From a virus: a stretch of 64,000 bases of DNA. A model generated the notes under the pieces. That model did not search any database. It saw nothing but the letters and a program-made list of their open reading frames with translations, and was not told the DNA's origin. Both the position numbers and the translations under genes were made by a program. The stretch lies in the IMG/VR virus record IMGVR_UViG_3300002835_000047, positions 32,001-96,000 of that record. The stretch is one strand, 5' to 3'. Shown here piece by piece: positions 10,380-36,918 of this stretch (position 1 is the stretch's first letter; the number at the start of each line of letters is the position of its first letter).

Positions 10380-10381
10380 AC

Positions 10382-12697: not shown

Positions 12698-12706
12698 ATG
12701 TAATTG

Positions 12707-12765: not shown

Positions 12766-12769
12766 AGAT

Positions 12770-15700: not shown

Positions 15701-15913
15701 GAATTGATTTTGGAGACTCAACCCACCATATATAATATTAAAACGGGGAATATGGAGCCATTGCAAGTTCAAACATTTCCTATAGGGCAAATTGCAAGTG
15801 GAAGTCCTATTGAACAAATTGATTTTATAGTGCAACAAAAAATCAATCAGCTTAATATTATAGCTCAAAATAATAACAAAAATCAGTTGGCAAATAAAAA
15901 ATCAAAACAATAA
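12770..15913 (+). CDS. Ejection (core) protein, 1047 aa
   Basis: Helical Gln/Asn-rich N-terminal half (MATYTQG..QPFTPDY), Cys-free, immediately upstream of the vRNAP gene as in crAss-like phages. Confidence 0.6.
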   Translation: MATYTQGNQPYLPNWQPFTPDYKFLSDVLDTKTNRYNTNYKELNDLYGKVVYSELSRQDTNEMRDQFTNTLGKQLELVSGMDLSVAQNVDYAKKLFKPFYDEKIIVKDMLYTKKYRDDMQYANQLQQSPDQQMRELYWTTGVEALNYQMQDFKNASADEALGMSLPQYVADADLEQKALDYLKKQGFDVTMDSISPDGAFIVKDRNGNLITEQAYRMASRALLDDPIVQQAYYTDAYVKSRKFADSGIQTGNFKSVSEGQNAWASEVINVYEKNLAIRSLNEKADLSKLQDINVNWENYIKNYGIIPGSTEEQELNVVQDELTSKLMAYQQTQSILQNAGTMDTKTTKGLLNKAYSLIMGYNMQDDLSAGVVAFSNINKSRELKVNDYYKQKLDHQHDFAKIQQQHTNAMTEEAQKQRNRIDLEKLKGTIGGSDFINSILGGGMDASGAVYNEMGTESSAIDTETGLAIDPKKYDYVNGQQNKILNYHQDALNENIQFGLEALEKFYPSKNGNNQYSLNFENTGITTTKVGSLPELRQYLQDPRNKTIAEGFIYKMHALMKDPDLAVKTNPNFVKENSGANYQELQTRFDVSMGRLTAVDNIQTQFMGTVSDNFDKAIQTDLTSETKSVREDIAAGALKIIQPSQNGTSRIISEQEFIADFIQKAKSKGPQNNKYYYYASPAAYTRASIGTLPPGGVSAQDLAMSSSRRPKTDGFIFNENLAVANAVKSYKRQKDIMNATLSGVLNTEAEKGGKGRIFQSFDAGSFMRGVPKDQMTAADALKNPSYPSFFDPTTIGKDPLSQRNFAFLVGQVKKTPSQDLTFYAGDIGKDDVRTESSNAKAKQVFDQWLLSVSSFSNAKASKTNIPKANITYNPVYGANDADNLGKTKAAYVITFDTDWLQSLQGSTNKPGLIGAIELESFKTITISFPQDKDVSDRSFKDFNFSNVIYDVEYSPEKQYVKNIDSGGRVRVYKNAKDELILETQPTIYNIKTGNMEPLQVQTFPIGQIASGSPIEQIDFIVQQKINQLNIIAQNNNKNQLANKKSKQ

Positions 15914-24900: not shown

Positions 24901-27900
24901 ACAGAAACAGGAACTGAAGAAATTATTCCTATTAATGTAAATAGCCCAAGTATTAATAAAGCTAGAGCTTTTAACTTTCATAAAACAGGTGTTCTTTTAA
25001 GTCCATTAGGCCAGAAAAAAGAAAGCCGCCAAGGGATTGTAACAATTCAAACTTCTGATATCAAATTGGAAAGAATTGAAAAAGGAAAGCAAACATCTCT
25101 TATATATGATCAAAAAGCCGCAGAACAATTTATTGGTTTTACATCTACCGGTGTTGTTAGAGATGCTATTGTAAAAACTAAAGATGGAGACAAGAATATT
25201 CAAAAGAAAATTATTGGTAGAGGTTTAATAAGAGTAACGCCTGAAAATAGAGAAAGAATATTTGAAGATTTTAAGGGCTCTATTTCACTTATTCAAAATG
25301 ATCAGTTTAAATATGAAGTACGTATTGGCAATAAAAAGTTTTACGTAGAATCAATCAATGAGCAGAAGTTCTTACAAGGTAAGAAACCTATGTATATGTA
25401 TGATTTGATGGAAGTTGGGGAAGCTGGTTTAATGGATCAAGTCACAGCTCTTATTGGTGGATTTGAAGCTGAAGGTTACTTAGATAAACTAACTGAAGCA
25501 GCGCGTTCTCAGGAGTTTGCAGGATTAACTTTTATGGAAGCTATTCAAAAGCTTGGTATAAAGGAATCAGAGTTGAAAGGATTTTTGCAAAATAGAATGA
25601 ACCAAGAATTTGCAGAGTTTAATATTACACTGGACGAACTTGTTGGTGCAGAAGGTGGATTAGGAAACTTCTTGACAAATGGCATTCAGTCAGGATCTGG
25701 TACAATAACCACAGAATCTAGAGAAGCCGGTCGTTTATTAAATATTATTCCTGAAGACAAAGCATATAATCTAAAGCAAATCTTTTTTAATGACTATATA
25801 AATACTACGGCCATTAACCAAATTTTATTAGGTGATAGTGCTTATAGTTTGAAGGACGCGGTTGATGAAATTAAAAGAGCAAAAGCACAGTCAGCATCTT
25901 ACTATAGTGCAGCAAGTACAGTAGCTGCACCTGAATATGGTATTTACAAACCATTACAAGAAATTTCTTTGTTTGAGTTAACGGAACCTATTGTCAATTC
26001 AACTCATAATATCAGTAAAATTAAAAATGCAGATGCTCAATTGTGGATGACAACTAAAGCTTTCCGTAATTTTCAATACGGTTTTGGTAAACTTACTCCA
26101 GCCCAAGCAGCTTTGTTTGATAAAATTGAAAATGGTGATGATGTTAGTGCTGATGATATTTTTGGTACAGAGGAATCTACCGGATATGCTAAGAGGCAAG
26201 AAATGCTTAATTCTCAAAAGCTTGTCTATGCGGATGGTAAAACATTCGTTAAGATGTCAGCATTCCCATTATTACCACAGTTTACTTCAATAAAAGACTC
26301 TGAAGGTAACTATACTATTCCTAAACCTAATAAAGTAGCTTTACATAATTTAAGAGTTAAGCTTGAGGCATTTGAAAAAGAAAATGATACAGTTTCGGTA
26401 GCTGCCCCAAGATCTGCATTAAAAATGATGCAAAAGAATGTGTCTAACATTCACAGTGTTACTGGAACAACAAATCCATTAAGTCAAGATCAATCTGTTA
26501 CACTTAATGCTAATTACTTAGGTTTACAGGTTATTAATCCATCTAATAAAACTGTTATAACGGATCCTACCCAGGTTAAAACGTTGGTTACTTCTGAACA
26601 GAATGATTCTACAGAAGTGATAGTCAATGGTAAGAAAATAACACTAGGTGAAGTGAGAGCTGCTTATCATAAAGCAACTAGAGATAGAGGTAACTTAAAC
26701 TATATCAACAAAAGAAATTTGATATTCTCTTTTGATCTAGAGTATGCAATAGATGAACTTCATAAGAGTATTAAAGAAAATGCTATTACTGCAGATCTTT
26801 ATACTTACTTGAGATACGCAGAAGCTAGTCTTGCATCTACAGGTTCATCAAGTCATTTGATGGAATTATTTTCACTAGATGAATCCGGAAATCAAAAGTA
26901 TAATCTTAATAACCCTCTCACTTATGATAAGTTCTTGAATTTATTCATGAGCTATTTCAGCAAAAGTGTGTTTAATGAGAAGTTACCTGGTGCAACAATA
27001 TCATTGGTTTCTGATTATGGCGTAAGAGTTTACAGAAGAGTTCTTTCTGTAGATGAAAATGGAATGCCTGATAAATATGAGATTATTACTGAAGCTCAAT
27101 ATGAGGCTATGGCTAATAAACCTGGTATTGCATTTAATATTGATGAAGGTTCTTATCCAGGTAATGATGAAAATCTTGCAGGTCTTAATGATGCAGTGAA
27201 AAAATCTAAGGGTGCCGGTGTTGTTATTATTGACCGTTTGAGACATAACATGAAAGAGTATGACTCAAACGGAAAAGAAACTGGACAAAGGTATGGCGAA
27301 ATGATATTACCACCTCACCATAAAGAAGTGATGGAACAGTTACAACTTCAAGGTAAATCTATTCCGGATGTTGTAGGTAAAATGTTTGCTGTACGTATTC
27401 CTTCACAAGATAACCATTCAACTTATAACGTTAAGTGGATAGACTTTATGCCTGCTATTTATGGTTCTTCTGGTGTGTTTGCAAGAGAACTTATTGAGAT
27501 ATCAGGAGCTGACTTTGACATTGATAAACTCTATACGCAATTTAAAGAGTTTTACTTAGAAAACAATAAGTTCAAAGAATATGGAAAAGCTACAACTGAT
27601 GATGCTAAATACATTGAGTATATAAATTATGTAAATAAAAAAGTAAAAGATTCAGATTCCATATATAGTGAAGCATTATATAAATACAATGGTCGGGGTG
27701 TAGGTAAAGCTATAAGTATTACCTATGAAGATTTACTTTCTGCAAAGAGTAGAGGCTTTACTGAAAATTCTATAAATGCTTTATTGGTATTAGGTATGCC
27801 TGTTACCTTAGCGGATTACAAAAAATATAAGGAAAAGTTCAGACATGAACCATATGCCGCAGCAATTAATAATGATATTTTAGATTATAAGTTTGCACTT

Positions 27901-30900
27901 ATGGGTAACGATTATGTTACTGAAAGAAAACCTTTGTTTTTGGATAATAATGGTAAAACTACAACTGTTAACACGGGTAAGCCTGCGTTAGATGAAAATG
28001 GTAAGCAAAAAACTTCTGTAGCAATCTCACATGAAGCAGCTGACATGGAAGTTTTAAAGGATCTTTGGAATGAACTCAAAGAAGAACTTCCGGAATGGGC
28101 CGCTTTATCTGAAGAAGAAGGTATTGATGTAGATAACTTATATGGCAAGCTTAGAATGTTTGCTAACAACAAAGAAGGTTCTAGATCAATTGGTGCGGTT
28201 GTATTGCCTAACCTATATTTAAATCTTCTTCAGGAGTATGATGTAAAAATTGAAAGTACCAAACTTAATAGTGAAGAAGTATTACCTCAAATTGAATTTG
28301 GTGGATTTACATTTAGAAACTTTAACAATACGTTTGAGTTAAATGAAGACACTAGTCAAGGTAAAAGAACTCAGTATATAATATCTGCTTTAATCACTGC
28401 AGCAACTGATAACGCTAAAGAAAGACTTTTGGCTAAGCTTGGTTTAAATATCAATGCTTTATCAATTGTAGCAAATCTTACAGCTTTGGGTGTTCCTATA
28501 AAAACTTCAGTTCTTTTGGTTAACCATCCTGTTATTAGGCAAGCTTACTTTATGGAAGCTAATGCACCGGCTGATCAAAAGATATCTGCAAGATCTATAG
28601 TGCAAGAACGAATTAGTGCACTAGAAACAACATTTCTTGAAGAGGAGGAAAAAAAACTGAGAACTTCCGTCACTCAAAACTCTTTAATGGAAGCAATTGA
28701 GACACCATTAATTAAAGCGAATGCTACTGAGGGTGATATGATTGAACTTAGAGAAAGTAATGAGGTAACAAAGATGCAAGTCATTGATGAAATTTCAATA
28801 TTAGAACAGTTTTTAAATGCTTATAAACTAGCTAATACTACGCGGTATATGGGTGATATCTTAAGTCTTACCAACGGTTTAGGTCAAGGTCTTGAGGCAA
28901 TTGATAAGAGAAATGAGGCAATAAAAAAATTAGGTCTTAATTTATCTAAGGAACAATTTTCAGCATTAGGTGTTAATAGACCAATGATTGATGCTAGACC
29001 TGTGTTCAAAGGTCTTACGTGGCAAGCCGGTTATCTTGAAAGATTCCAGGAGTTTACTAATTTGTTATTACCGAAAGTAGTTCTTTCAACAACTCCTTTA
29101 TTTAGAACAGTCACTGAAGAAATAGCATATCAAACTACGGTTAATAGTTTACCTTATGAATTAAAAGATAAAACTAAAACAAAAATTGCTAAAGATTTTC
29201 TATCTTATTTGACAATTAAAGCTTATATCCAAAATGGCTTAGTTAATAATTCACAGTCTATAGCTACTCTTACAAATGGATTAATTTATAATCAAGACGG
29301 TATTGAAAATATAACTAAAGTATTGGATAGACTTAGATCAACTGAAGAAGGTGCTAACAATTATTTTTTGAACTCTTTTATTATTACTGAAAAAGCAAAT
29401 TTAAAAGGTAATAAAACCGGTTTAAATTTAGCTGGTGCAAATACATTTTTAAGATATAATGATTCTCAAAAGTTAGACATTCAAAATGGCTTTATGGCTT
29501 TGTATGCTGATCCATTAACAAGATCAGATGCAAAAACAATTGTGCATTATATGATGGTCAAAGATGGTTTGCAATATGGTTATAAATCAATTGTTGAAGC
29601 TGTAGCTCCAATTGCCATTGATAATTACTTATCCCATATTGATACAGTACAGGCGGCAATAGAAAGACCTAATGATACTATATTTAAGTCAACATTTGGT
29701 ATGAGCATAGATGACTTAGTGATTGATTTTATGAAGGGTTATTTAACATCATCAATTAACGCCTATATAATTAAAAAAGTAAGAGCAAAAGTCTATGATC
29801 CGGAAACAAAAATTATTGGTATTGAATCTAATTTTACTAAAGAACTAGCTTCGTCTAATTCTGAAGCTATTTTTGTTTTTGGAGATAATTTTGCAAGGCA
29901 AGGCACTGTTGGTAATAGTTCTATAAGAGGTTTGGATAATGCTTTTAGCTTATTCTTTAAAAAGGATATGAATAGAATTGATTCTTCTTACTACACAGAT
30001 GATGAAGCTGGAGATTTTATTACGATCTTTGATGAGCAAATGGAACAATTAACAAATATGATTGCTGAAGAAAAGAAAGTAATTTTACCTAAAGAATTAA
30101 TTTCATCTTCAGAACTAGCTGACTTTAAAAAGAATAGTCCCGTTGTATTTGATTATGTAAAGTCAAAGCTTTTACAAGAGTTTCAGTATAACATTGAAAC
30201 TAAAGAGAAAAAATCTGATGAAGAAAAGAAAGCAGCAAGAGTTTCAAATGTTAATATCTTAAAATCTCCTGTTCATGTGGATTCATCCGGTGTAGTATCA
30301 AAATTAGTTGTTAATTTATATACCGGAATTTCAAGACTTGAAAAAACAAATGCTGTCACTTCTAAACGTGATGTTCCTTCTAGTTCAAAATTAACTAAAA
30401 AATTTGGAAATCTTTTTATTAAAAACAAAAAAGCATTATATAAAGCTGGTTTTAGGAATTTAATTGATTTCAAAAAAGGTTCTGAATTTTACACTGAGGT
30501 AGAATTCCCAATAGTTATTAGACAAAATGTTGGATCGGACTATAAAGCTATATATAAATATTATGTACTTGCAAGAACACAAAGTTTAATTCCATCAGAA
30601 AATTTAATTAACTATAATAACAAAGCTGTCGGTAGTTATGCTGAGTATGTTGAAGTAGACATAAAAGGTTCAAACGCTCAGAATCCAATTGGTTTTATGT
30701 TTGGTGATAGACCTAATACAAAAGATCTAAGAGAGTTTGTAAAAGAAGTTAATTCTGATGATGCTAATTTTAATCAGTTTGATGATGAAAAGTTTGACTC
30801 AGTAATAGACAAAGCTGATTATGGATCCGGTGTGTCACTGCCTGTAAATTCAGAAATAACAGCGAATGAAAAAGGTATTCAAGTTAATGGTCAAAATATT

Positions 30901-31263
30901 AGTAAAGTAAAAGAATCATCTGAATCTTTTGAATCTGAAAATCTTGCAGAAAGTGATATTGAAATAACGGGTGATGAAAATCTAACCGATATAGATAATA
31001 ATTCAATTAATATTTCGGCTAGCTCATTCTTTGCTAGTTTACTAGAAAATGAATATTCAGAACTTAAGAGTTGGTGGGATCAGAATATAGATGGTGTATC
31101 TGATGAAGCTTTGCAAAATAAAAATAAAATTAAAGAACTAACTAAAGATCCTAATATGAAATTTAAAGTAAATGACTATGATGATTTTTTAGATGAGTTT
31201 AAACAAAGTGGTTTTCAAAATGAAAAAGAATTTATAGAACACTTCAAAAATTGTTATCTTTAA
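15925..31263 (+). CDS. Giant virion-associated RNA polymerase polyprotein (two-barrel, phi14:2 gp66-like) with membrane-like N-terminus and zincin domain, 5112 aa
   Basis: SGADFDIDKLY catalytic loop (DFDID at 27511-27525, residues 3863-3867) preceded by VRIPSQ (R3824); YHEAFH (22345-22359) with downstream EEYMADEF; Gly/Ala-rich hydrophobic helices at about residues 220-600. Confidence 0.9.
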   Translation: MLNANTNERLMSEGGLPQTNPQIPDSSKFEFQSVYDFFSPPDTPEFNQIMDPEYENMLRQHAQQINSYAPAAIGNLNTPTPTLSSETYNPTKQRTGYNLSTPDGIHALLNDFSGVIKSDKPVIANPIAAGIRESNFDRYYKHPKFSKLGWHPYADNESFYNANSSWWDDFGRMSTQFGNLASTGFVSSYRSIGDLFDSDSYFSGTDMESASEFSDAMRIGNSTRGGVAGFANNLALQFGYTAGIIGSIAVEELALSAGAALQGYMNPLADAALAGRTALNMGRLGRSIAQSFDVTRFAGATRNMYNTLRSVDAAKDFYSFAKTGGRIAGQIFAPETYRAIKTLNSTANGAQNLTNMAKVSKTFGGFYRDLRSLNLALSESKMEGGMVYAQQLANNYDYYSEKNNGTPVTEEQMGLITENASRAAYWTTLQNAPTIFFSNQLLLGNAFGAYNKSLSRILNDNVSGLAGRVIRAKGITEAGKAVTRPFIDAGTGLKGLYNTVKAAGVRGSVQMGAHASLRYFAANLSEGIQELTQEAIAHGTKDYHLEILKDPASGGKDLLSATIASAVGSQFNSQGFETFMSGFLMGGLAQGPQKLLFQGLPSLYQRTFEKEKFEEYKKNKETYINNLVNSLNDAYEITANDPMSSIFDTNKVNLVSQKQASDNILQSIFDDSEFDFVDAKDFSKFQSIYTVLSSGKASDFKAQFRDYLKMTNEELAQIFPASKKDIKSGKLASRMQDMINKIDQLEDSFNENKNKFQNPFNSSIYRKGTREYNEERIKEMSFEHARYLYMFTEDGFKRALERSKLLYDDLASDPIVGKMAASDITVLLDQNSLAKEIKMLLSEISVLDPKENKEIIEAKTNKLKGLDAVFNVLYAKENLNAKGNFDKRKINKLRKAFETYVQLLAKSNGTFADQNKIKEALKKIIDYKDLSERANAYNKSIEYMNNPDRFDEIRLRAYEFYKSIFRNRAQVFKESLKNYISKSEINQFLNELDKLNVIPDPEEVKIFMQNGDINVLQNFYSESGLVGKNTDPDIYDQIQGLINIYKSSVEPTVTEKPEDEATAKSNVEENIDALLESAKIDDAPEKAETSVYGTEPNINPFIKKLLEAKYRLYVGRQISLGKSPVSQINWLKGKEAESYLNAYKALKKVWYNDLKNSGQQSLIETNGNFDIGFEEWLKSKQDDPIIDKVFDIVDLTIHDFIKIPTPNSSFVSNTSDKVVDDTFDNVVIIENKTLIDDPDTGLSTQTSIFTVRTKAGQLIEDAYTKAAGVSSGAAFSNISKAREAAKKLDPLLVENTPFKFGDKEVFYGSSVYDKNGDGYVVIGTAPEVQRGGKLFLLPFDKIKNASTKQERNRLAKKVTEDEFTNDYVLDEFNFSRLSENTSKLLVDEAVGVYSFRNANETEEQANLRLQTILENLTPEEKKFLLVIKRNPKEGVRGKYKIGTKDENPYINKVAEPFSVGLTFADPNTRSRINNILSQNGIELSSDPNGVFGFVRTGSVQFVNKKNEVINPVNLPKEIIDDTFKIYESQEPNAVTNIRNNFAIQQAFVDQIADKMEGVDSIIIPANELPEFSFNIGSSVYVKNKSERSIYDLKYNTVDGVRVLMINDKLKDGTILSRILTDIDDIDESNAFVNKLESDLKAQPGLFEVLQKSQRYVLLIKSPNGLFTGAPLKTNRLSDDQIFELGRELIKEGIRTINENLVGEGSVETKKIKDPNFNIEFNRAFNKKFYITTNIEGYTVEINVNSDGTFRAELYDKNAKKVIGTSYINEGRQGTLDYQDVENPDIIERLLDNLQKKGIDKATQDYKEDKKKDPSLEIPEWTKLEISKSNVRDSFQEDATVDTVINNTVTNLDVNVRTNYKLRLNAGSNTIQEVLLFAATPAAIQQENKVVVEETPVAPVSEIEAKKADIERRRKISLTKITAEQAKNISGIQDLEGYYEINGFWEGVYITDKFEGRSTPYKSAITANSEKELLDNINAKYDAELVALEGVKPAPIAVTTQEVTAPLKRELQQNQVRIKEIEAEIDNAESDMVKASQLMEDNAERQKLIARNREIQRKLLANKIVSKTLSEQEVADIDEFVIWANNNLPNFITVEDISNLRDNLVTNGVRVGAFVLSMNQIAGGMTVKGTLYTGAKSPYKYHEAFHGVFRSLLSNTQQDKLYKIAEAELKAKLGNKFEEELSKFRNSADSYKAMSRKALEKEFYEEYMADEFDKFKMDPRSTKANPAIKNFFTRLIEWIKSLFSSYSPNELQELFKNIDSGKFKSASPINNRFTDSLANGITLANKIIPVEMIESETGAFGYRTLDNDFARSLISSISARVIMLEQENKNANFNLKEAVNDSFNRFRALYSTKREAYKTMELTPEQKSNLRDIEKAFSDFSDFIKEGVYDQLKYYDIKTRNVEDDLEDLEEQVGDRLRTTDQYDKDVTSIGGFSSLSSFLRKYIGTTSISEMDQFGNEYLIDQEKDINGNVIEGTGEKLLITVDFATAYNGFLKAVKNINDPIKILQRLYFFGINNPQTQAVVNKLFLDLGIKWEGQLENDQLPQYSSTIIEKFRNGQEVTPEELKEGINRPLLFQAVLKGFENARVDYLFIHRSPGDKVTTYTAANRDDANTQVDRWGQAYIQKFKRLKTSKDARDKIVKELQTLGSYLQFVGKDEKVSKKLKSREDDILLKDAINFSKVIEEYLGISLSPKFIEFSIAKNLEELTPYQKALLNANSNAKVLEQTDVVEITKAIASNQNLFTIDEGVKIRLKVIALSNAEFDENVGASVFKNPNGDLVYAHQLPSFHLKKVNSLNDITDNGAKIEKLKNSDDYLKDNFLLNSEAFKQLSAEGKLRVLRISGSKIGNIDFDEDGLMSETSGRTPSSGTTYGDSTPREFILNLINSYNYDVDSSKGKLKNKISWAAEDKTINVAAIAPVLLRVLESSNTGDMMALPVFKAVEKNSKGETVLTDQALDAILNNIAAEFTRIQKESNPETATQELYVGYNALAIESTETGTEEIIPINVNSPSINKARAFNFHKTGVLLSPLGQKKESRQGIVTIQTSDIKLERIEKGKQTSLIYDQKAAEQFIGFTSTGVVRDAIVKTKDGDKNIQKKIIGRGLIRVTPENRERIFEDFKGSISLIQNDQFKYEVRIGNKKFYVESINEQKFLQGKKPMYMYDLMEVGEAGLMDQVTALIGGFEAEGYLDKLTEAARSQEFAGLTFMEAIQKLGIKESELKGFLQNRMNQEFAEFNITLDELVGAEGGLGNFLTNGIQSGSGTITTESREAGRLLNIIPEDKAYNLKQIFFNDYINTTAINQILLGDSAYSLKDAVDEIKRAKAQSASYYSAASTVAAPEYGIYKPLQEISLFELTEPIVNSTHNISKIKNADAQLWMTTKAFRNFQYGFGKLTPAQAALFDKIENGDDVSADDIFGTEESTGYAKRQEMLNSQKLVYADGKTFVKMSAFPLLPQFTSIKDSEGNYTIPKPNKVALHNLRVKLEAFEKENDTVSVAAPRSALKMMQKNVSNIHSVTGTTNPLSQDQSVTLNANYLGLQVINPSNKTVITDPTQVKTLVTSEQNDSTEVIVNGKKITLGEVRAAYHKATRDRGNLNYINKRNLIFSFDLEYAIDELHKSIKENAITADLYTYLRYAEASLASTGSSSHLMELFSLDESGNQKYNLNNPLTYDKFLNLFMSYFSKSVFNEKLPGATISLVSDYGVRVYRRVLSVDENGMPDKYEIITEAQYEAMANKPGIAFNIDEGSYPGNDENLAGLNDAVKKSKGAGVVIIDRLRHNMKEYDSNGKETGQRYGEMILPPHHKEVMEQLQLQGKSIPDVVGKMFAVRIPSQDNHSTYNVKWIDFMPAIYGSSGVFARELIEISGADFDIDKLYTQFKEFYLENNKFKEYGKATTDDAKYIEYINYVNKKVKDSDSIYSEALYKYNGRGVGKAISITYEDLLSAKSRGFTENSINALLVLGMPVTLADYKKYKEKFRHEPYAAAINNDILDYKFALMGNDYVTERKPLFLDNNGKTTTVNTGKPALDENGKQKTSVAISHEAADMEVLKDLWNELKEELPEWAALSEEEGIDVDNLYGKLRMFANNKEGSRSIGAVVLPNLYLNLLQEYDVKIESTKLNSEEVLPQIEFGGFTFRNFNNTFELNEDTSQGKRTQYIISALITAATDNAKERLLAKLGLNINALSIVANLTALGVPIKTSVLLVNHPVIRQAYFMEANAPADQKISARSIVQERISALETTFLEEEEKKLRTSVTQNSLMEAIETPLIKANATEGDMIELRESNEVTKMQVIDEISILEQFLNAYKLANTTRYMGDILSLTNGLGQGLEAIDKRNEAIKKLGLNLSKEQFSALGVNRPMIDARPVFKGLTWQAGYLERFQEFTNLLLPKVVLSTTPLFRTVTEEIAYQTTVNSLPYELKDKTKTKIAKDFLSYLTIKAYIQNGLVNNSQSIATLTNGLIYNQDGIENITKVLDRLRSTEEGANNYFLNSFIITEKANLKGNKTGLNLAGANTFLRYNDSQKLDIQNGFMALYADPLTRSDAKTIVHYMMVKDGLQYGYKSIVEAVAPIAIDNYLSHIDTVQAAIERPNDTIFKSTFGMSIDDLVIDFMKGYLTSSINAYIIKKVRAKVYDPETKIIGIESNFTKELASSNSEAIFVFGDNFARQGTVGNSSIRGLDNAFSLFFKKDMNRIDSSYYTDDEAGDFITIFDEQMEQLTNMIAEEKKVILPKELISSSELADFKKNSPVVFDYVKSKLLQEFQYNIETKEKKSDEEKKAARVSNVNILKSPVHVDSSGVVSKLVVNLYTGISRLEKTNAVTSKRDVPSSSKLTKKFGNLFIKNKKALYKAGFRNLIDFKKGSEFYTEVEFPIVIRQNVGSDYKAIYKYYVLARTQSLIPSENLINYNNKAVGSYAEYVEVDIKGSNAQNPIGFMFGDRPNTKDLREFVKEVNSDDANFNQFDDEKFDSVIDKADYGSGVSLPVNSEITANEKGIQVNGQNISKVKESSESFESENLAESDIEITGDENLTDIDNNSINISASSFFASLLENEYSELKSWWDQNIDGVSDEALQNKNKIKELTKDPNMKFKVNDYDDFLDEFKQSGFQNEKEFIEHFKNCYL

Positions 31264-31266
31264 TAT

Positions 31267-34200
31267 ATGGCATGTTTTAATAGAAATACACAGGAATATA
31301 AAGATCTATTAGGTAATTTTAATAGTAATCTTAAAGTTGACGGTATCATTACCGGTTGGCAGCTAGCAAATAACAGTGATAAATTTCCCACTGTAGCAGA
31401 AGCCAATCTGTTTTTGAAAAATAAAAAAATTGCTTTTAATCTTAAAAAAAGAGATTTTTCAGATGTCTTATTGTCAAATCTAGTTAATAAGCGCCTTGTA
31501 AGTAAATACAAAGATGCATATTGGGTTGTTAATTCAAATAGAGCTTCACGCGTTTATGATGAATCTGTATTGCAAAGCAACTTTAGTAAAATTAAAAGAT
31601 ATCTTCAAATTAATAATATTCCGGTAGAGGCTTTACAATTTACTAGAACTAGGCAATCTATTAAGATTGCAGTTGATGATTCTATATTTAGCCCTAAAGA
31701 TTTATTAGAATCTTCCAGGTCCTGGGATACTAATAAAAGTAAACATGTTATTGTTCATTTAATGAGGTTGTTTCCAAATCTTAGGATTGAAATGACTACT
31801 GTAGCTAAAGCAAAAGCATATTACGATTCATTACCTGCATGGCAAAAGGCAAATGTTAAATTTGAAAAAGTAAATTCTTATTTTGATCCGGTTGCTAGCA
31901 AGGTTTTTTTGGTTGAAGGTAGAGTTACAGATGAAACAGCTATTGAAGAAATACTTCATCCTTTTACAGATGCCTTGTATATAGAGAATAGAGGTTTGTT
32001 TAACTCTTTGCTAGAAGAGGCCAAGCTAAATTTCCCAGTATTAAAGCAGCAAATTGAAAATTCTTATAGTGATAAACTTGGATTTACTAAAGAAGACAGG
32101 GAATTTGAACTTGTCACACAAGCTCTGAGTAGATATTTTAAAAAAGAATTTGAGGAAAATCCCACAAAGACTTTTAAAGAAAGAATAAAAGAGTTTTTGG
32201 ATTGGTTTGCCGGTATTATAAATAATCTGCACAAGTATATTACGGGTGTAGATATTAACATCCAAGATATCAAACCTACAGCTACTCTATCTGATATTGC
32301 TAAGTTGTTAAATACTAGTGATATCAAATTTGATATGAAAGCCAGTGCTAATAATAAAATTAGATTTTCACTTACACCTGAGCTTCAATCTGTAGTTGAT
32401 TTTGCATTAAGTCAATCTAATGAGGCACAATCTATAATTATTAAAAAGCTGTTTCATCAAGCGCAAGAACTTAAAGATGAAGTAGGATCATTATCCGCCG
32501 GTGAAGATGGTCCAATTGTTGTTCTTAATGAAGAGAATCACATCTACTATAATCTATTAGATACAACTGAAGTTTTTAAATCTACAACTGAAAGAATTAA
32601 AGGAACTTTTTCTGAGGAAGATTTATTTAATAAAAAGTTAAATCTTGATTTAGGAAATGATTTTGATAAACTGTTACAGGCTATAGCGTCGGATAAATCT
32701 TTTGATGATGTGTTTTCCAGTATGAAAGTTTTATCTAAAGAGCAAGCTGGAAAAGCTTATATACAATTAAGAGAAAATCTTAATGAATTAACTCGGGGTG
32801 GAGGTGTTGCAATTCCGCAAGTTGTTGTTTATGATAGAGTTTCTAGAACTGCAGGTACAATTGATATTTTAATTGTTTTACCAAACGGTAAGTTAAAAAT
32901 TGTAGACCTTAAGACAAGTAAAAACTCTATACGTGAAATGGCGGCGGGTGAGAAAAACCTTAAATATGATACTGCGTATAATCTAGCTATAGATAGTGAC
33001 CTTAGAAAATTAGGTGTTGAAAAACTTTCAACAAGATCTCAGCAAGGTCTGCAAGTAAATATTTATAGGAGGATGTTAGAAAATATGGGGTATGACGTAG
33101 ATGAAAGTGATACCGGTGCTTCTACATTTCATATACAAGTTGGTGTTTCAGGAAAGGATGCAGAGCAAAAATTTACAGGTGAGTTTAGATCTGATGAATG
33201 GGTATTGCATCCTTTAAGTCAAAATAGTTTATATGTGGATTTATTGATCCCTAAGAATAAAGATCTTTTTAACGAGGAGCAAATAGATAGTGCTTTAGAT
33301 AAAGCGCTTAGTTCAACTGTTAATTGGAATGAAGCTTTAACTGAAGATGAAAAGGCTCCGGAAAATAATGAAGACTACACTGAGTTTGAAGTTATCACGC
33401 AGGCTTTAGAGTCTTACAAGATTGGTTTAACTAAAAAACTACAAGCCGTAGACTCAATTAAAAGTTCTATCTTCATGGATAGAAGTAAAGAAGAGACACG
33501 GGAAGATATAGCAAATGGATTAAGTTTGATAAATTTAGCTCTATCTGAATCTACAGAGGGTCGTTCTGCAATATTTACAGACTTAGTTAGAGATGCCATT
33601 AGGCAAATGGATAAGTTTATTGATTACATGCAGAATCCAAATAACTTTAATAAACCTGAGTACATTACATATGCACTAAACACAAGTCGTTTTATTAAAA
33701 CTTTTGAAGGTTTACACTCAGTCAAAGATTTGAAAGGATTTAATAATACCCAAACGCGTTTGGTTTTAGAATTAATTGCAAGATTAAACCGTGTGGGCGC
33801 TAACAATAATCCTAATGATGAAAATATTATTGACACTGCTATTACAAATTATGTAAAAGAACAAATAAAAACTTGGTCAAGTAGAGATAATCTTACTGAG
33901 GATATTCTAGATGATTTAATAAAAGGCACAGCTAAAGAAGTAAGAGATATTGGTACTCTTGAGCTTAATGCAATGGATATGGCTACGTCTAGAGATATAA
34001 TTCTTGCTATAATGGATAAAATATATAAGGTTAAAAAGCAAGAAGTTTTAGAAAAGGCGGAAGAAAGAAACAGATTAATCTCCGAACTTTCATCAAGACT
34101 TTTAAAGTTGTCACCCGGGAAAAATGTTCAAGACATTTATGACTTCATGCTTGAATTTGATGAAAATGGTGAGTTTACCGGTGACTACGTAAAAAAAATA

Positions 34201-36918
34201 GGTAGGCAGTATTATGATAAGCTATACGAACTTAGAGATAAGTTGACAGATGAAAATGGTAATTTTCTAGAGTATAGAGTAATAGAAGATATAACGACAG
34301 CTTCAAAAGAAGATATTGAGTTTAATGTCAAATTGGCCAAAATAAAAGCTGCATATGCATCTTTCTGGTCTGCGGAAAGAATAGGTTTAGATGATAAACT
34401 TATGGATGGTGAATACCATAGTTATACAGATGAATTCAAAGCCCTAAGAGCAAAATATCAATACTACGTAGAGGTAAATGGAAAACCCATTTGGAGAAAA
34501 AAAGCATCAGTTAGTGATAGAGCTTATCAAATATATCTAGCAAAATATTTTAATAGCGTTACATATACATATGCGGTTAAAGACCAGAATGGTAATTTTA
34601 CTGGAGCTACTATACCAGGTAGAGAATTTTTAGCTCCAAAACCGGAATATAAAATTGTAAATGATTATAACAAACGTACCGGAGAAAGTTTGCTTAGTAA
34701 AAAATATGAAAGTATTATTAATCCAACTGATGCTTTGGGCAAAGCTCAAAAAGATTTTTACTTAGCTTTTTCTAATATTTATGAAAATGAATTACTTAAT
34801 AAACTTGCACCTGGCGTAAGATCTCAAATGTTAGGGAGTGTTCCAGTTATAAAAGGAAAGCTTTTCCAAGATATCAAAAATAAACCTAACCCTGTAGCAA
34901 AGCTTTGGTCAAGTATGACAAGAAGTTTAAAAGATCTTGTGTCTGAGACTACAGAGCAAAGGGGTGTTGTATTAGATGAAAACGGTAATATTGTTGATTC
35001 GCTTCCAGTTTTTTATACAGGTAAGCTAAGAAATAATGAAGAGCTAGAAGCGCTTAATAATGAAATAAATGATCTAAATGAAAGACTTAAAAAAGGTCTA
35101 ATTAAAAAGTTAGATTATGATGAACAAATTAAGATTTTAAATGCCAGACTTATAGATGTTAGAAGTAGACCTTCTAAAGGAGAATTAAATAAAGATATGG
35201 GTACGGCTTTAATGATGTTCAGCACTATGGCAGAGCACTATGAAGTTATGAGCGGTGCTGAAGATACCTATAGAGCATTTATTAAAGTATTAGAAAAGAG
35301 ACAATATCAACCTTCAGATAAAGGTACCGTATTGGGTACTTTTACAAAAGGTAAGTTTAAGGCTCAAGGTCTTATATCAGGTGCTGATTCAAATGTTCTC
35401 AAAAGAGCAAAGAAGTGGATGTCCATGGTTTATTACAATAGTGACGATATAAATAAAAACTTTATTACTAAGGCCCTGGATGGTTTAATTACATATTCTT
35501 CTTTATCCTATGTAGCGTTTAACCCATTTGGTAACTTTAATAACTATGCTCTTGGTAGAATTAACAACTCTATTGAAGCTTTAGGAGGACGTTTTTTCTC
35601 GGGTAGTTCTTATAATAGAGCTGAGTATGAATTTAATACACAAGCAATTCAGTCTTTAATTTATAGAACAAGCGCCGCAAGTATGAAAATTGGTGGAAAA
35701 TCAGATTATGATCCAAAACTGCCAAGCAATAAGTATGAAGCGCTTGTAGATTACTTTAGAATGATGGACGCTAAATCAGATATAAGAGAAACTGTATCAG
35801 GTCCTCAACCAATTCAAAAATCATATTTCAGTAAATTTGCGGATCTAGGTTATATATTTCAAGACGCGGCTGAATATAATGTGCAAACTAAAACCGGTAT
35901 GGCTATTCTTATGGATACTATGATTATGAATACTAATACCGGAGACATACTTTCCTTATATGATGCTTATGAATTTGATAATAGCACTAAAACAGTGAAG
36001 TTAAAGAATGGCTATGATAAAATTGTTTCTCTTGATCCTAGAAATGTAGATAAAAATGGAAAGCCTAATATTATAAAAGAAACTGACTTTACAGATAACT
36101 ATAGATATTTAATTAGGAATAATATAAGAGAAGTAAATAAGCAGATCCATGGTAACTATGCTTTAGATGATAGAATGGTTATTCAAACGCATGCACTGGG
36201 ACGGCTTGTAGCACAATTTCATAAGTGGGTAATTCCGGCTATTAATGCAAGATTCAGATCAGAATATTTTGATGAGAATTTAGGATGGATGGAAGGCCGG
36301 TATAGATCTTTTTGGAAATTTCTAGCTTACACCACAAAGAAAGTTGCTACACTGCAGGTAGAGTTTGGTAAACATCAGGAAAATTTTATGAGTGAGTATG
36401 GATATGTTGGTGACAATTCTCAGTCAGATCAACGTGCAAAAGATAAACTATTTGGAGCATATAGAACACTTGGTGAGATTGGCTTTATTATGGTGAGTTT
36501 TGCTTTAAGTTCTATCTTTGGATCCTTATTTGCAAATGATGATGAGGATGATGACACAGAATTTGAAAAAAGAATGAAGAATTTCCTTAGATATCAAACA
36601 GATAGAACATATAAGGAATTAATTTTATTTACCCCATTGGGCGCTAAACAGGTTTGGCAAATGTTTGATTCTCCTATTGCGGCTACAAGAACACTTGGTG
36701 AATTAGGTGAGGCTTTAAGCTTAAGTGTAACTACACCAATTGCTTATTTAATTAAGGGTAAGGAAGAATTCTATCTTGACAAAGATTATGTTTACCAAAG
36801 GGGTATTAGAAAAGGTGAGTTAAAACTGTATAAAAACTGGAATGATGTTATACCAATTTTATACAGTATTAAAAAGTGGCAAGATTTTAACAATCTAACT
36901 AATTTCTACATTAAATAA
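31267..36918 (+). CDS. Large ejection protein with PD-(D/E)XK nuclease domain, 1883 aa
   Basis: AGTIDILIV...IVDLKTSK (D533, D547, K549) and QQGLQVNIY RecB-type motif; degenerate zincin-like EEILH; C-terminal hydrophobic helix IGFIMVSFALSSIFGSLF. Confidence 0.75.
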   Translation: MACFNRNTQEYKDLLGNFNSNLKVDGIITGWQLANNSDKFPTVAEANLFLKNKKIAFNLKKRDFSDVLLSNLVNKRLVSKYKDAYWVVNSNRASRVYDESVLQSNFSKIKRYLQINNIPVEALQFTRTRQSIKIAVDDSIFSPKDLLESSRSWDTNKSKHVIVHLMRLFPNLRIEMTTVAKAKAYYDSLPAWQKANVKFEKVNSYFDPVASKVFLVEGRVTDETAIEEILHPFTDALYIENRGLFNSLLEEAKLNFPVLKQQIENSYSDKLGFTKEDREFELVTQALSRYFKKEFEENPTKTFKERIKEFLDWFAGIINNLHKYITGVDINIQDIKPTATLSDIAKLLNTSDIKFDMKASANNKIRFSLTPELQSVVDFALSQSNEAQSIIIKKLFHQAQELKDEVGSLSAGEDGPIVVLNEENHIYYNLLDTTEVFKSTTERIKGTFSEEDLFNKKLNLDLGNDFDKLLQAIASDKSFDDVFSSMKVLSKEQAGKAYIQLRENLNELTRGGGVAIPQVVVYDRVSRTAGTIDILIVLPNGKLKIVDLKTSKNSIREMAAGEKNLKYDTAYNLAIDSDLRKLGVEKLSTRSQQGLQVNIYRRMLENMGYDVDESDTGASTFHIQVGVSGKDAEQKFTGEFRSDEWVLHPLSQNSLYVDLLIPKNKDLFNEEQIDSALDKALSSTVNWNEALTEDEKAPENNEDYTEFEVITQALESYKIGLTKKLQAVDSIKSSIFMDRSKEETREDIANGLSLINLALSESTEGRSAIFTDLVRDAIRQMDKFIDYMQNPNNFNKPEYITYALNTSRFIKTFEGLHSVKDLKGFNNTQTRLVLELIARLNRVGANNNPNDENIIDTAITNYVKEQIKTWSSRDNLTEDILDDLIKGTAKEVRDIGTLELNAMDMATSRDIILAIMDKIYKVKKQEVLEKAEERNRLISELSSRLLKLSPGKNVQDIYDFMLEFDENGEFTGDYVKKIGRQYYDKLYELRDKLTDENGNFLEYRVIEDITTASKEDIEFNVKLAKIKAAYASFWSAERIGLDDKLMDGEYHSYTDEFKALRAKYQYYVEVNGKPIWRKKASVSDRAYQIYLAKYFNSVTYTYAVKDQNGNFTGATIPGREFLAPKPEYKIVNDYNKRTGESLLSKKYESIINPTDALGKAQKDFYLAFSNIYENELLNKLAPGVRSQMLGSVPVIKGKLFQDIKNKPNPVAKLWSSMTRSLKDLVSETTEQRGVVLDENGNIVDSLPVFYTGKLRNNEELEALNNEINDLNERLKKGLIKKLDYDEQIKILNARLIDVRSRPSKGELNKDMGTALMMFSTMAEHYEVMSGAEDTYRAFIKVLEKRQYQPSDKGTVLGTFTKGKFKAQGLISGADSNVLKRAKKWMSMVYYNSDDINKNFITKALDGLITYSSLSYVAFNPFGNFNNYALGRINNSIEALGGRFFSGSSYNRAEYEFNTQAIQSLIYRTSAASMKIGGKSDYDPKLPSNKYEALVDYFRMMDAKSDIRETVSGPQPIQKSYFSKFADLGYIFQDAAEYNVQTKTGMAILMDTMIMNTNTGDILSLYDAYEFDNSTKTVKLKNGYDKIVSLDPRNVDKNGKPNIIKETDFTDNYRYLIRNNIREVNKQIHGNYALDDRMVIQTHALGRLVAQFHKWVIPAINARFRSEYFDENLGWMEGRYRSFWKFLAYTTKKVATLQVEFGKHQENFMSEYGYVGDNSQSDQRAKDKLFGAYRTLGEIGFIMVSFALSSIFGSLFANDDEDDDTEFEKRMKNFLRYQTDRTYKELILFTPLGAKQVWQMFDSPIAATRTLGELGEALSLSVTTPIAYLIKGKEEFYLDKDYVYQRGIRKGELKLYKNWNDVIPILYSIKKWQDFNNLTNFYIK

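What the first reader, a model, noticed from the sequence alone, without database searches (positions are those of the whole stretch)
31250..31278. Two giant ejection proteins carry one Cys each, at their facing termini
Seen by reading the translations: the 5112-aa vRNAP has a single Cys (C5110, ...FKNCYL*), and the 1883-aa protein starting 4 nt later has a single Cys (C3, MAC...). No Cys was seen in the 759, 810, 771 and 1047-aa cargo proteins, whereas the external muzzle protein is Cys-rich. Two cysteines in about 7000 residues, placed at adjoining ends, is unlikely to be chance. Inference: an intermolecular disulfide (or shared metal site) chains the proteins head-to-tail so they eject as one thread through the tail and come apart in the reducing cytoplasm.
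Basis: partly seen in the sequence, partly recalled or inferred. Interest (0 to 1): 0.72.

Follow-up and report, generated by a model that had tools for sequence, protein, structure and literature searches.

The report
Terminal cysteines tether crAss cargo proteins
Two giant proteins that this marine crAss-like phage most likely packs and injects (its RNA polymerase and the next protein) contain one cysteine each, at the ends that face each other, and relatives keep such a pair wherever these genes are separate and drop it where they are fused, which points to an end-to-end, probably disulfide, tether not yet described for this phage order.

Summary
Observation confirmed. Six consecutive proteins (10,382 aa) hold two cysteines, about 131 expected. 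They are C5110 of the 5112-aa RNA polymerase protein (...NCYL*) and C3 of the next, 1883-aa protein (MAC...).

Both are functional. C5110 is the only invariant column among 24 homologs down to 26% identity. All 120 homologs of the 1883-aa protein keep the N-terminal Cys, and 80 of 80 IMG/VR loci keep both.

The 5112-aa protein is a fusion of the crAss001 gp47-like and gp50-like modules; the 1883-aa protein is the gp49 homolog. In ten architectures checked, every separate boundary carries Cys on both facing termini. Two of the three fused boundaries carry none nearby; the third could not be placed. Outer ends carry none. GIY-YIG homing-endonuclease cassettes that split the gene bring their own Cys-tipped ends.

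Cryo-EM of cyanophage A4 shows exactly such a disulfide (gp27 Cys1715 to gp26 Cys5). Best reading: a head-to-tail disulfide tether. The bond itself, ejection as one thread and release in the cytoplasm are untested.

Cysteine suppression in ejected proteins is already known for N4-like phages. I found no paper describing the crassvirus rule. This scan found the same rule earlier on other genomes.

The parts
133..5577 (+). 1814-aa muzzle/stabilization-like external tail protein, Cys-rich (27 Cys); serves as contrast to the cargo block
   Evidence: Cys count. (PHROG virion structural protein families, E 5e-39 and 3e-24). (weak match to crAss001 gp44, E 2e-5).
5577..15913 (+). Four Cys-free cargo-type proteins (759, 810, 771 and 1047 aa), at 5577-7856, 7947-10379, 10382-12697 and 12770-15913
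   Evidence: 0 Cys in 3387 aa. They sit where crAss001 gp45/gp46 sit, between the muzzle and the RNAP block. Sequence similarity to gp45/gp46 is not significant, so the cargo role is inferred from position.
15925..31263 (+). 5112-aa protein: a gp47-like module (residues 1 to about 2310) fused to a gp50-like catalytic RNAP module. Its single Cys is at 5110.
   Evidence: residues 2114-2280 match the C-terminal parts of crAss001 gp47 and of the Dulem virus 2474-aa protein (E 2e-5 and 5e-9); residues 3520-3969 match gp50, phi14:2 g066 and LMMB 4070 (E about 1e-11); one Cys.
27511..27525 (+). DFDID motif (residues 3863-3867), the catalytic-type motif of crAss-like virion RNAPs
   Evidence: SGADFDIDKLY here, SGSDFDVDKLY at crAss001 gp50 residue 1483, and both lie within the aligned stretch. 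The motif is described as DFDxD in 10.1101/2020.03.07.982082.
29827..30162 (+). DUF7831 domain inside the C-terminal part of the 5112-aa protein
   Evidence: PF25176, E 9e-18, residues 122-233 of P0001 (residues 4635-4746 of the protein).
31021..31260 (+). C-terminal small helical module (residues about 5033-5112) on a roughly 90-residue low-confidence linker. It carries the tail motif [E/D]F[I/L][E/D]x[I/L]KxCxL.
   Evidence: AF2 pLDDT about 88 for the last 70 residues and 28-50 for the preceding residues 433-528 of P0001; the Cys lies in the last helix; motif and invariance.
31252..31254 (+). Codon of Cys5110, at -3 from the C-terminus; the only Cys of the 5112-aa protein
   Evidence: It is the only invariant column in alignment A2 (24 sequences, down to 26% identity). 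It is present in 80 of 80 loci at -2 to -5.
31261..31266 (+). TAA stop plus one spacer codon (TAT); both ORFs are in the same frame
   Evidence: In relatives the gap is -1 to 134 nt, the frame is the same or different, and the stop is TAA, TAG or TGA. Read-through or a nucleotide-level signal therefore does not explain the pair.
31273..31275 (+). Codon of Cys3 of the 1883-aa protein; its only Cys
   Evidence: All 120 homologs have a Cys at position 3-5 (position 8 in one, P0025, whose called start is extended), and in 116 it is the only Cys. C3 and N5 are invariant in alignment A1.
31267..36918 (+). 1883-aa protein, homolog of crAss001 gp49 and phi14:2 g065; last link of the chain; no Cys near its C-terminus
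   Evidence: gp49 E 1e-21, Dulem 1331 E 2e-17, cr118_1 1667 E 2e-16, g065 E 6e-10; its C-terminus matches the C-terminus of LMMB 4070 at E 3e-15.
32554..33066 (+). PD-(D/E)xK nuclease-like domain (residues about 430-600) of the 1883-aa protein
   Evidence: D533, D547, L548 and K549 are invariant. PF12705 is recorded on several homologs. VIA-align Z 5.1-5.6 to AdnA, AddA and MGME1, 4.9 to Dna2 and 4.6 to Cas4; this structural evidence is weak.

Best explanation
The window carries the cargo block of a marine crAss-like phage. Its giant proteins are kept free of cysteine because they are stored in the particle and must pass, partly unfolded, through the tail and the host envelope. This principle is already described for N4-like ejection proteins.

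Two cysteines are kept on purpose: one three residues before the C-terminus of the 5112-aa RNA polymerase protein, and one at position 3 of the next, 1883-aa protein.

Inferred mechanism:
- The C-terminal helical module of the first protein docks on the N-terminal end of the second.
- In the assembled, extracellular particle the two thiols form one inter-protein disulfide.
- Because the link joins a C-terminus to an N-terminus, the pair behaves as one unbranched chain of 6995 residues, a polyprotein stitched by a disulfide instead of a peptide bond.
- This would fix a 1:1 ratio and the order of the modules, and could let one module draw the next through the channel.
- The reducing cytoplasm could then release them.

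Shown here: the counts, the conservation, the co-occurrence, the covariation with gene fusion and fission, and the homing-endonuclease cassettes with Cys-tipped ends. Shown by others: a disulfide of this exact topology in cyanophage A4. Inferred only: the bond in this phage, co-ejection, and release.
For: 1. Depletion: 2 Cys against about 131 expected, P about 1e-53; 156 and 601 TGT/TGC triplets off frame against 2 in frame.

2. Conservation. C5110 is the only invariant column among 24 homologs down to 26% identity. It is the sole Cys in proteins of up to 5722 aa. All 120 homologs of the 1883-aa protein keep a Cys at position 3-5 (8 in one with an extended called start), and in 116 it is the only one.

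3. Co-occurrence: 80 of 80 IMG/VR loci have both. Intergenic gap, frame and stop codon vary.

4. Covariation with architecture.
- Window and cr118_1: [47+50]-C / C-[49].
- phi14:2, crAss001, cr128_1, cr85_1, Dulem virus 41 and TARA contig L100: [47]-C / C-[50]-C / C-[49].
- p-crAssphage LMMB: [47]-C / C-[50+49].
- A further three-protein run (contig L099) has the same Cys layout, but its proteins were not matched to these modules.
- 22 inner tails and 21 inner heads carry a Cys within 9 residues of the end.
- 0 of 9 outer N-termini and 0 of 10 outer C-termini have a Cys within 20 residues.
- In crAss001, cr128_1 and cr85_1 the gp47-like gene lies on the opposite strand from gp50 and still keeps the pair.

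5. Natural split experiments.
- In L003 a GIY-YIG gene (PF01541) interrupts the homolog of the 1883-aa protein.
- A 99.7% identical uninterrupted relative (P0008) reads straight through that point.
- In L003 the new upstream piece ends ...IIEKKCS* and the new downstream piece starts MSCK.
- In L097 two such cassettes give pieces of 91 and 345 aa, each with a Cys at both ends and nowhere else.

6. Precedent. Cryo-EM of cyanophage A4 shows the C-terminal helix of gp27 inserted in gp26 and a disulfide Cys1715-Cys5 (PMC12002296). In A-4L, gp27 (1717 aa) and gp26 (1114 aa) each have that single Cys, at -3 and at 5.

7. Crassvirus particles do use disulfides: tail and gp57 bonds in crAss001 (PMC10172136).

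8. AF2 places Cys5110 in the last helix of a small confident module on a long flexible linker, which suits a docking tail.
Against: - No direct evidence of a bond in any crassvirus. The cargo proteins gp47, gp49 and gp50 were not resolved in the crAss001 maps.
- The particle is assembled in a reducing cytoplasm, so the bond must form later and needs a non-covalent docking step that I could not model. No multimer prediction was available.
- No sequence or fold similarity to A4 gp26/gp27 was found, so the precedent is an analogy.
- Many of the 80 loci and 120 homologs are related to each other, so the counts are not independent events. The independent evidence is the ten architectures and the cassettes.
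- Some gp50-like modules have 1-3 internal Cys, LMMB 4070 has 7 and cr118_1 4946 has 4.
- The fused junction of LMMB 4070 could be placed only roughly; the nearest Cys, C2220, lies roughly 200-350 residues upstream of it.
- Two cargo proteins elsewhere have a lone C-terminal Cys with no N-terminal partner in the next gene: L100 b715 and LMMB hyp861.
Confidence: 0.7

Rival explanations
1. The two terminal thiols share a metal ion (for example Zn, Cu or Fe) at a small inter-protein site instead of forming a disulfide. The tether is then metal-dependent rather than redox-dependent.
For: The pairing evidence says the termini meet, not how. One thiol from each partner could bind a soft metal linearly.
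Against: - Only one Cys per terminus.
- No His, Asp or second Cys is conserved beside it. C597 is the only invariant column of A2, and the His at -7 in the window is absent from most relatives.
- His is depleted in these proteins (0.39-fold).
- The solved analogue in A4 is a disulfide.
Confidence: 0.1
2. Each terminal Cys bonds to something other than its neighbour: a capsid, portal or tail protein, another cargo protein, or a second copy of the same protein.
For: Two lone C-terminal Cys lack an obvious partner in the next gene: L100 b715 and LMMB hyp861. The crAss001 tail and portal-vertex proteins are rich in disulfides.
Against: A third-party partner does not predict three things that are seen. 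Tails and heads occur in equal numbers at each split boundary. Both vanish together at the two fused boundaries that could be placed. Outer ends never carry a Cys. It also does not predict that cassette-made fragments get a Cys at both new ends.
Confidence: 0.08
3. The Cys residues are part of a non-covalent docking or sorting signal (packaging signal, recognition by a chaperone or protease) and form no bond. Alternatively they are nucleophiles in a processing reaction such as protein splicing.
For: The termini carry conserved motifs around the Cys: tail [E/D]F[I/L][E/D]x[I/L]KxCxL and head M-A-[K/R]-C-x-N-[K/R]-N. Drobysheva et al. expect the fused polyproteins to be cleaved.
Against: - Cys is the one residue otherwise purged from these proteins, so keeping it suggests that thiol chemistry is needed.
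- The flanking motifs differ between families while the Cys stays.
- A Cys 1-5 residues from a terminus leaves no room for intein halves.
- Pfam finds no Hint or intein domain in the last 599 aa of the 5112-aa protein or anywhere in the 1883-aa protein.
- Fused forms have no Cys at the junction that could act in cleavage.
Confidence: 0.07
4. Chance or relaxed constraint: termini tolerate a Cys that is purged elsewhere, and the facing position is a coincidence.
For: Termini are often less constrained than protein cores.
Against: Positional chance is about 6e-7 in this window alone. The Cys are invariant where their neighbours vary. Outer termini, which are just as free, never have one.
Confidence: 0.01

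Closest known systems
Cyanopodophage A4 (Anabaena phage A-4L) ejection proteins gp27 and gp26 in the pre-ejectosome (PNAS 2025, PMC12002296)
   Same: - Neighbouring genes for giant internal proteins.
- The upstream protein has its only Cys at -3 (Cys1715 of 1717); the downstream protein has its only Cys at position 5.
- Cryo-EM shows the C-terminal helix docked in the partner and a disulfide between the two Cys.
- This is the same head-to-tail topology as in the window.
   Different: - No detectable sequence or fold similarity to the window's proteins.
- A4 is a 42-kb T7-like-sized podophage without a virion RNAP.
- There it is a single pair in a fivefold ring.
- The paper treats the bond as a structural detail. 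It gives no rule about fusion and fission and no chain of three.
RNAP-associated cargo block of Crassvirales: phi14:2 g067-g066-g065 (Drobysheva et al. 2021; preprint 10.1101/2020.03.07.982082) and crAss001 gp47, gp50, gp49 (Bayfield et al. 2023, PMC10172136)
   Same: - Homologous proteins with the same DFDxD module.
- They are found in virions by mass spectrometry in those phages.
- The fusions of the three modules are known.
- The same terminal-Cys rule holds in them.
   Different: - Here the first two modules are fused in one 5112-aa protein, so there is one junction instead of two.
- Neither paper contains the word cysteine or mentions a link between these proteins.
- Sequence identity to the cultured phages is low.
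Cysteine suppression in the ejection operon of Schitoviridae: N4 gp50/gp51/gp52 and DEV gp71/gp72/gp73 (PMC11445570)
   Same: Giant virion RNAP and companion ejection proteins almost free of Cys. N4 has 0 Cys in 4294 aa. The paper explains this by passage through the oxidising periplasm. T7 gp15 and gp16 are also Cys-free.
   Different: N4-like proteins have no terminal Cys at all, their vRNAP is a single chain, and no tether is implied. The RNAP is unrelated in fold (T7-like single-subunit type; my own knowledge).
Genes split by free-standing homing endonucleases ('genes in pieces', for example the split NrdA of Aeromonas phage Aeh1; recalled from memory, not checked here)
   Same: A homing-endonuclease gene sits inside a phage gene, and the two halves are made as separate proteins that must reassemble. 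This is what L003 and L097 show for the homolog of the 1883-aa protein.
   Different: In the known cases the reassembly is non-covalent. Here the cassette itself adds a short tail ending in Cys and a short head starting M-S-C, which suggests a covalent splint.

Membership tests
Crassvirales RNAP-associated cargo block (gp47/gp50/gp49 of crAss001; g067/g066/g065 of phi14:2) | Giant protein with the DFDxD catalytic-type motif, homologous to gp50/g066 | tested here: met
   Residues 3520-3969 of the 5112-aa protein match gp50 (E 2e-11), LMMB 4070 (2e-11), Dulem 2247 (2e-9) and g066 (4e-6). DFDID lies at residue 3863.
Crassvirales RNAP-associated cargo block (gp47/gp50/gp49 of crAss001; g067/g066/g065 of phi14:2) | Companion proteins homologous to gp47/g067 and gp49/g065 | tested here: met
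   The 1883-aa protein matches gp49 at E 1e-21 and g065 at 6e-10. Residues 2114-2280 of the 5112-aa protein match the ends of gp47 (2e-5) and of the Dulem 2474-aa protein (5e-9). The gp47 part is the weaker match.
Crassvirales RNAP-associated cargo block (gp47/gp50/gp49 of crAss001; g067/g066/g065 of phi14:2) | Position downstream of the muzzle/stabilization protein and the small cargo proteins | tested here: met
   The order here is muzzle-like 1814 aa, four Cys-free proteins, then the RNAP block. LMMB, Dulem virus 41, phi14:2 and cr118_1 have the same order.
Crassvirales RNAP-associated cargo block (gp47/gp50/gp49 of crAss001; g067/g066/g065 of phi14:2) | Proteins are present in the virion and delivered to the host | not testable with these tools
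   Shown by mass spectrometry for phi14:2 and crAss001 only. Inferred for this uncultured phage.
A4-type disulfide between consecutive ejection proteins (gp27 Cys1715 - gp26 Cys5) | Upstream protein has a lone Cys within a few residues of its C-terminus; the downstream-encoded protein has a lone Cys within its first five residues | tested here: met
   C5110 at -3 and C3, each the only Cys of its protein. A-4L has -3 and 5.
A4-type disulfide between consecutive ejection proteins (gp27 Cys1715 - gp26 Cys5) | The two Cys form a disulfide in the particle | not testable with these tools
   Needs non-reducing gels, cross-link mass spectrometry or cryo-EM of particles.
A4-type disulfide between consecutive ejection proteins (gp27 Cys1715 - gp26 Cys5) | Homology of the partners to A4 gp27 and gp26 | tested here: inconclusive
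   phmmer finds no match. Foldseek and VIA-align searches with the model of the first 600 aa of the 1883-aa protein list no A4 chain. That model has several domains and pTM 0.41, so a missing match proves little. The model of the last 599 aa of the 5112-aa protein was not searched.
Cys-suppressed phage ejection proteins (as described for Schitoviridae) | Cys frequency far below the proteome average in proteins of the ejection/cargo operon | tested here: met
   0.019% against 1.26% in the other ORFs of the window. N4 gp50-52 have 0 Cys. The rule is published in PMC11445570.
Split intein | An N-intein of about 100 aa at the end of the first protein and a C-intein ending in His-Asn before a Cys/Ser/Thr at the start of the second | tested here: not met
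   The Cys lie 3 residues from either terminus, which leaves no intein halves. Pfam finds no Hint or intein domain in the last 599 aa of the 5112-aa protein or in the 1883-aa protein. The cassette pieces in L003 and L097 have tails of 27 aa and heads of about 33 aa only.

The most novel reading that the evidence does not exclude
The Cys-tipped ends are a portable module. Homing-endonuclease cassettes carry a short 'tail helix + Cys' and 'Cys + head' on either side of the nuclease gene. A giant cargo gene that they split is then re-joined at the protein level by a disulfide splint, a covalent alternative to inteins. The standing gene boundaries of the crassvirus cargo block (47|50|49) would be scars of such insertions after loss of the nuclease gene. 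If so, terminal-Cys chaining would be a general way for phages to build and reshuffle injected 'virtual polyproteins'. It is seen here in crassviruses, and in A4 it would be a convergent or very distant case.
Probability: 0.3. Interest if true: 0.8.

Novelty: new variant of a known kind. Interest (0 to 1): 0.68.

Why it matters
Crassviruses are the most abundant phages of the human gut. How they store and deliver about 0.7 MDa of RNA-polymerase cargo is an open question, because these proteins were invisible in the crAss001 cryo-EM maps.

A conserved head-to-tail tether would explain several things:
- how three (here two) separate giant proteins are packed in fixed ratio and order;
- why the genes can be fused or split freely in evolution;
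- why every other cysteine is purged.

It gives a cheap, decisive test on phages that are already cultured: reducing against non-reducing gels, and a re-search of existing non-reduced mass-spectrometry data. It also gives a sequence rule for annotating cargo chains in metagenomes. The endonuclease cassettes with Cys-tipped ends suggest a way in which mobile elements can cut an essential gene without killing it.

Tried and rejected
- Read-through or one polyprotein. The two ORFs are in frame across TAA-TAT in the window. In 80 relatives the gap (-1 to 134 nt), the frame and the stop codon all vary. Rejected.
- Nucleotide-level signal at the junction. The gp47-like gene lies on the opposite strand from gp50 in crAss001, cr128_1 and cr85_1 and still keeps its Cys. 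Rejected.
- Split intein, CaaX-type lipidation, lipobox. The geometry does not fit: the Cys is at -3 with no aliphatic-aliphatic-X spacing, there is no signal peptide, there are no intein halves, and Pfam finds none in the parts scanned. Rejected.
- DNA search of GenBank phages with the junction region: no match. A protein search of the same collection found only a shared small domain and one short crAss hit.
- PDB sequence searches with both proteins: no match.
- Fold searches of the N-terminal 600 aa of the 1883-aa protein: no clear match, only weak PD-(D/E)xK nuclease similarity (Z about 5) and no A4 chain.
- The apparent extra splits in L047, L058 and L071 are overlapping out-of-frame ORFs, that is frameshifts or sequencing errors, not true boundaries.
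- The fused junction in LMMB 4070 could not be placed better than residues 2400-2570.
- I did not fold a read-through construct of the junction. The tool returns no distances and the two Cys would be only 7 residues apart, so it could not test docking.
- Three literature searches for crassvirus cargo and cysteine plus reading of the two key papers found no description of the terminal-Cys rule.

Full report
**1. Observation**

The window (31% G+C) carries a run of large plus-strand ORFs.
- The 759-, 810-, 771- and 1047-aa proteins have no cysteine.
- The 5112-aa protein (15925-31263) has one, C5110, in ...FKNCYL*.
- The 1883-aa protein (31267-36918) has one, C3, in MACFNRN.
- The 1814-aa protein upstream has 27.
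- The other 20 ORFs of the window average 1.26% Cys.

At that rate 131 Cys are expected in these 10,382 residues; two are found (Poisson P about 1e-53). The same DNA carries 156 and 601 TGT/TGC triplets in the other two frames. The purge therefore acts on the protein and not on base composition. His and Trp are also low (0.39- and 0.41-fold). The two ORFs are in one frame, separated by TAA and one codon.

**2. What the proteins are**

The region has no close relative among GenBank phages, but it does have distant ones.
- The 5112-aa protein matches crAss001 gp50, phi14:2 g066, the p-crAssphage-type LMMB 4070-aa protein and others around a shared SGxDFD[IV]DKLY motif. This is the DFDxD motif of crAss-like virion RNA polymerases (motif described in 10.1101/2020.03.07.982082).
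- Its residues 2114-2280 match the C-terminal parts of crAss001 gp47 and of the Dulem virus 2474-aa protein (E 2e-5 and 5e-9). This places the end of a gp47-like module near residue 2310.
- The 1883-aa protein is the homolog of gp49/g065 (E 1e-21 and 6e-10).

So the window encodes [gp47-like + gp50-like] fused, followed by [gp49-like]. Drobysheva et al. already noted that the three proteins are virion components and are fused in some phages. Bayfield et al. found gp45, gp46, gp47, gp49 and gp50 in crAss001 virions and call them cargo. The last three were not resolved in the maps.

**3. Conservation of the two cysteines**

- A full HMMER scan with the last 599 aa of the 5112-aa protein found 365 relatives.
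- Most hits that reach the C-terminus end in a tail of the type [E/D]F[I/L][E/D]x[I/L]KxCxL, with the Cys at -2 to -6 in nearly all. It is usually the only Cys, in proteins of up to 5722 aa.
- In an alignment of 24 of them, down to 26% identity, C5110 is the only invariant column.
- A word-index search with the first 500 aa of the 1883-aa protein listed 120 homologs down to 43% identity.
- All 120 have a Cys at position 3-5 (position 8 in one, whose called start is extended). In 116 it is the only Cys.
- C3 and N5 are invariant.
- In 80 IMG/VR loci fetched with that alignment, 80 of 80 have both Cys. The intergenic gap runs from -1 to 134 nt, the frames agree or differ, and the stop is TAA, TAG or TGA.

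This excludes read-through and any nucleotide-level explanation. Three apparent extra splits are frameshifted ORFs.

**4. Covariation with gene architecture**

I read the block in seven annotated phages and two metagenome contigs, which with the window makes ten architectures.

| Phage or contig | Cys positions along the chain |
|---|---|
| phi14:2 | g067 -1 / g066 3 and -2 / g065 3; these four are the only Cys in 5398 aa |
| crAss001 | gp47 -3 / gp50 5 and -9 (plus one internal) / gp49 5 |
| cr128_1 | -4 / 4 and -8 / 5 |
| cr85_1 | -4 / 3 and -1 / 5 |
| Dulem virus 41 | -4 / 4 and -1 / 5 |
| TARA contig L100 | -2 / 3 and -4 / 3 |
| Contig L099 | -1 / 3 and -1 / 4 |
| cr118_1 (Suoliviridae), fused like the window | 4946 aa -4 / 1667 aa 3 |
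| LMMB (p-crAssphage type), gp50 and gp49 fused | 1957 aa -2 / 4070 aa 3, no C-terminal Cys |

- L099's proteins were not matched to the gp47/gp50/gp49 modules and carry no DFDxD motif. Only its Cys layout is comparable.
- In total 22 inner tails and 21 inner heads carry a Cys within nine residues of the end.
- None of 9 outer N-termini and none of 10 outer C-termini has one within 20 residues.
- In crAss001, cr128_1 and cr85_1 the gp47-like gene lies on the other strand, away from gp50, and still keeps its tail Cys.
- The fused 47|50 junction of the window (near residue 2310) has no Cys within thousands of residues; in cr118_1 the nearest Cys lies about 160 residues past the estimated junction.
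- The fused 50|49 junction of LMMB could be placed only roughly (residues 2400-2570). The nearest Cys is C2220.

**5. Natural split experiments**

- In IMG/VR contig 3300042294_004471 (L003) the homolog of the 1883-aa protein is interrupted by a GIY-YIG homing-endonuclease gene (PF01541, E 1e-8).
- A 99.7% identical uninterrupted protein (P0008) reads ...AELFESN-PELANSVYE... at that point.
- In L003 the upstream piece continues after ...ELFESN with 27 new residues ending ...IIEKKCS*. The downstream piece starts MSCKIIYKG... and resumes the host sequence after about 33 new residues.
- In a second contig (L097) two such cassettes cut the protein into pieces of 91 aa (MANC...KKCS*) and 345 aa (MSCK...DRVC*). 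Each has a Cys at both ends and nowhere else. They follow a giant protein that ends ...LLKCK*.

Wherever a new boundary is made, a new Cys pair comes with it.

**6. Structure**

- AlphaFold2 with the family alignment gives the last 70 residues of the 5112-aa protein as a small helical bundle (pLDDT about 88) behind a roughly 90-residue low-confidence linker. C5110 lies in the final helix.
- C3 of the 1883-aa protein lies in a short N-terminal coil before the first helix.
- Residues 430-600 of that protein look like a PD-(D/E)xK nuclease: D533, D547 and K549 are invariant, and similarity to AdnA, AddA, MGME1, Dna2 and Cas4 reaches Z 4.6-5.6.
- No solved structure matches clearly, and no A4 chain appears.

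**7. What is known**

- Cysteine suppression in ejected proteins is published for Schitoviridae. It is explained there by passage through the oxidising periplasm (PMC11445570).
- I confirmed 0 Cys in N4 gp50, gp51 and gp52, and 0 in T7 gp15 and gp16.
It reports that the C-terminal helix of gp27 inserts into gp26 and is fixed by a disulfide between Cys1715 and Cys5 (PMC12002296).
- In the A-4L genome gp27 (1717 aa) and gp26 (1114 aa) each have just that one Cys, at -3 and at 5. This is the same layout as in the window.
- I found no sequence similarity between the A4 and the window proteins.
- Crassvirus particles do use disulfides in the tail and at the portal vertex.
- Neither the crAss001 atlas nor the phi14:2 RNAP preprint contains the word cysteine. 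Three literature searches found no description of the crassvirus rule.

**8. Reading**

The best-supported explanation is that the tail of the 5112-aa protein docks on the head of the 1883-aa protein and that, in the released particle, the two thiols form a disulfide. The two proteins then make one unbranched chain, equivalent to the peptide bond that joins the same modules in other crassviruses.

- The Cys-free bodies keep the stored, densely packed and later unfolded cargo from cross-linking.
- The head-to-tail polarity keeps a single thread that could pass a narrow channel.
- A shared metal site, third-party partners, a non-covalent signal and chance are ranked lower, for the reasons given under the rivals.
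- The bond itself, co-ejection and reductive release are inferences.

**9. Limits**

- The many loci and homologs are related to each other and are not independent events.
- The independent evidence is the ten architectures, which cover three named crassvirus families, the window's own lineage and other unclassified lineages, together with the cassettes.
- Some gp50-like modules keep a few internal Cys.
- Two cargo proteins elsewhere (L100 b715, LMMB hyp861) have a lone C-terminal Cys with no partner in the next gene.

**10. Earlier notes of this scan**

The scan has noted the same rule on other genomes. I reached the conservation, the crAss001, phi14:2 and LMMB pattern and the L003 cassette before reading those notes. 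I took the A4 paper from them and checked it myself.

Noticed in passing
window 32554-33066 (residues about 430-600 of the 1883-aa protein): A PD-(D/E)xK nuclease-like domain sits in the gp49-like cargo protein. D533, D547, L548 and K549 are invariant, PF12705 is recorded on several homologs, and fold similarity to AdnA, AddA, MGME1, Dna2 and Cas4 is weak (Z 4.6-5.6). An injected nuclease would be of interest in itself.
   Followed up: partly
window 29827-30162 (residues 4635-4746 of the 5112-aa protein): A DUF7831 domain (PF25176, E 9e-18). The same domain of about 120 aa occurs as small stand-alone proteins in Rhizobium, Caulobacter and Sinorhizobium phages, and inside other Cys-tipped giant proteins (P0197, P0259).
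   Followed up: partly
L003 11813-14896; L097 3729-6325: GIY-YIG homing-endonuclease cassettes split the homolog of the 1883-aa protein at a ...ELF[E/D]SN | xxLANQVYEALGF site. They add a conserved 27-aa tail (...EEVITKL..N..IEKKCS*) and a head (MSCKIIYKGI.YDES...). L097 has two cassettes in a row.
   Followed up: yes
P0003-P0008, P0017, P0025, P0062, P0070, P0113 (homologs of the 1883-aa protein): A variable insert of 200-1200 aa at about residue 330 of the 1883-aa protein. Three of these homologs (P0004, P0007, P0017) carry PF18760 on record. The window's protein lacks the insert. The endonuclease cassettes sit at the start of this insert.
   Followed up: partly
L100 961-3108 (b715); L006 4760-7345 (LMMB hyp861): Cargo-type proteins with a single Cys 2-3 residues from the C-terminus, although the next gene product has no N-terminal Cys. 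These are unpaired tails and the partner is unknown.
   Followed up: no
L010 (phage T7) 27728-28318 and 18864-19130: T7 gp14 and gp6.7, both ejected proteins, each have a single Cys, at position 2 (MC...). gp15 and gp16 have none.
   Followed up: no
window 5577-36918: Besides Cys, the six cargo proteins are poor in His (0.39-fold) and Trp (0.41-fold) and rich in Ala and Gln, compared with the other ORFs of the window.
   Followed up: no
L047, L058, L071 (IMG/VR loci): Overlapping out-of-frame ORFs lie inside the giant RNAP gene. These are probably frameshift sequencing errors, or possibly programmed shifts; they are not true gene boundaries.
   Followed up: partly
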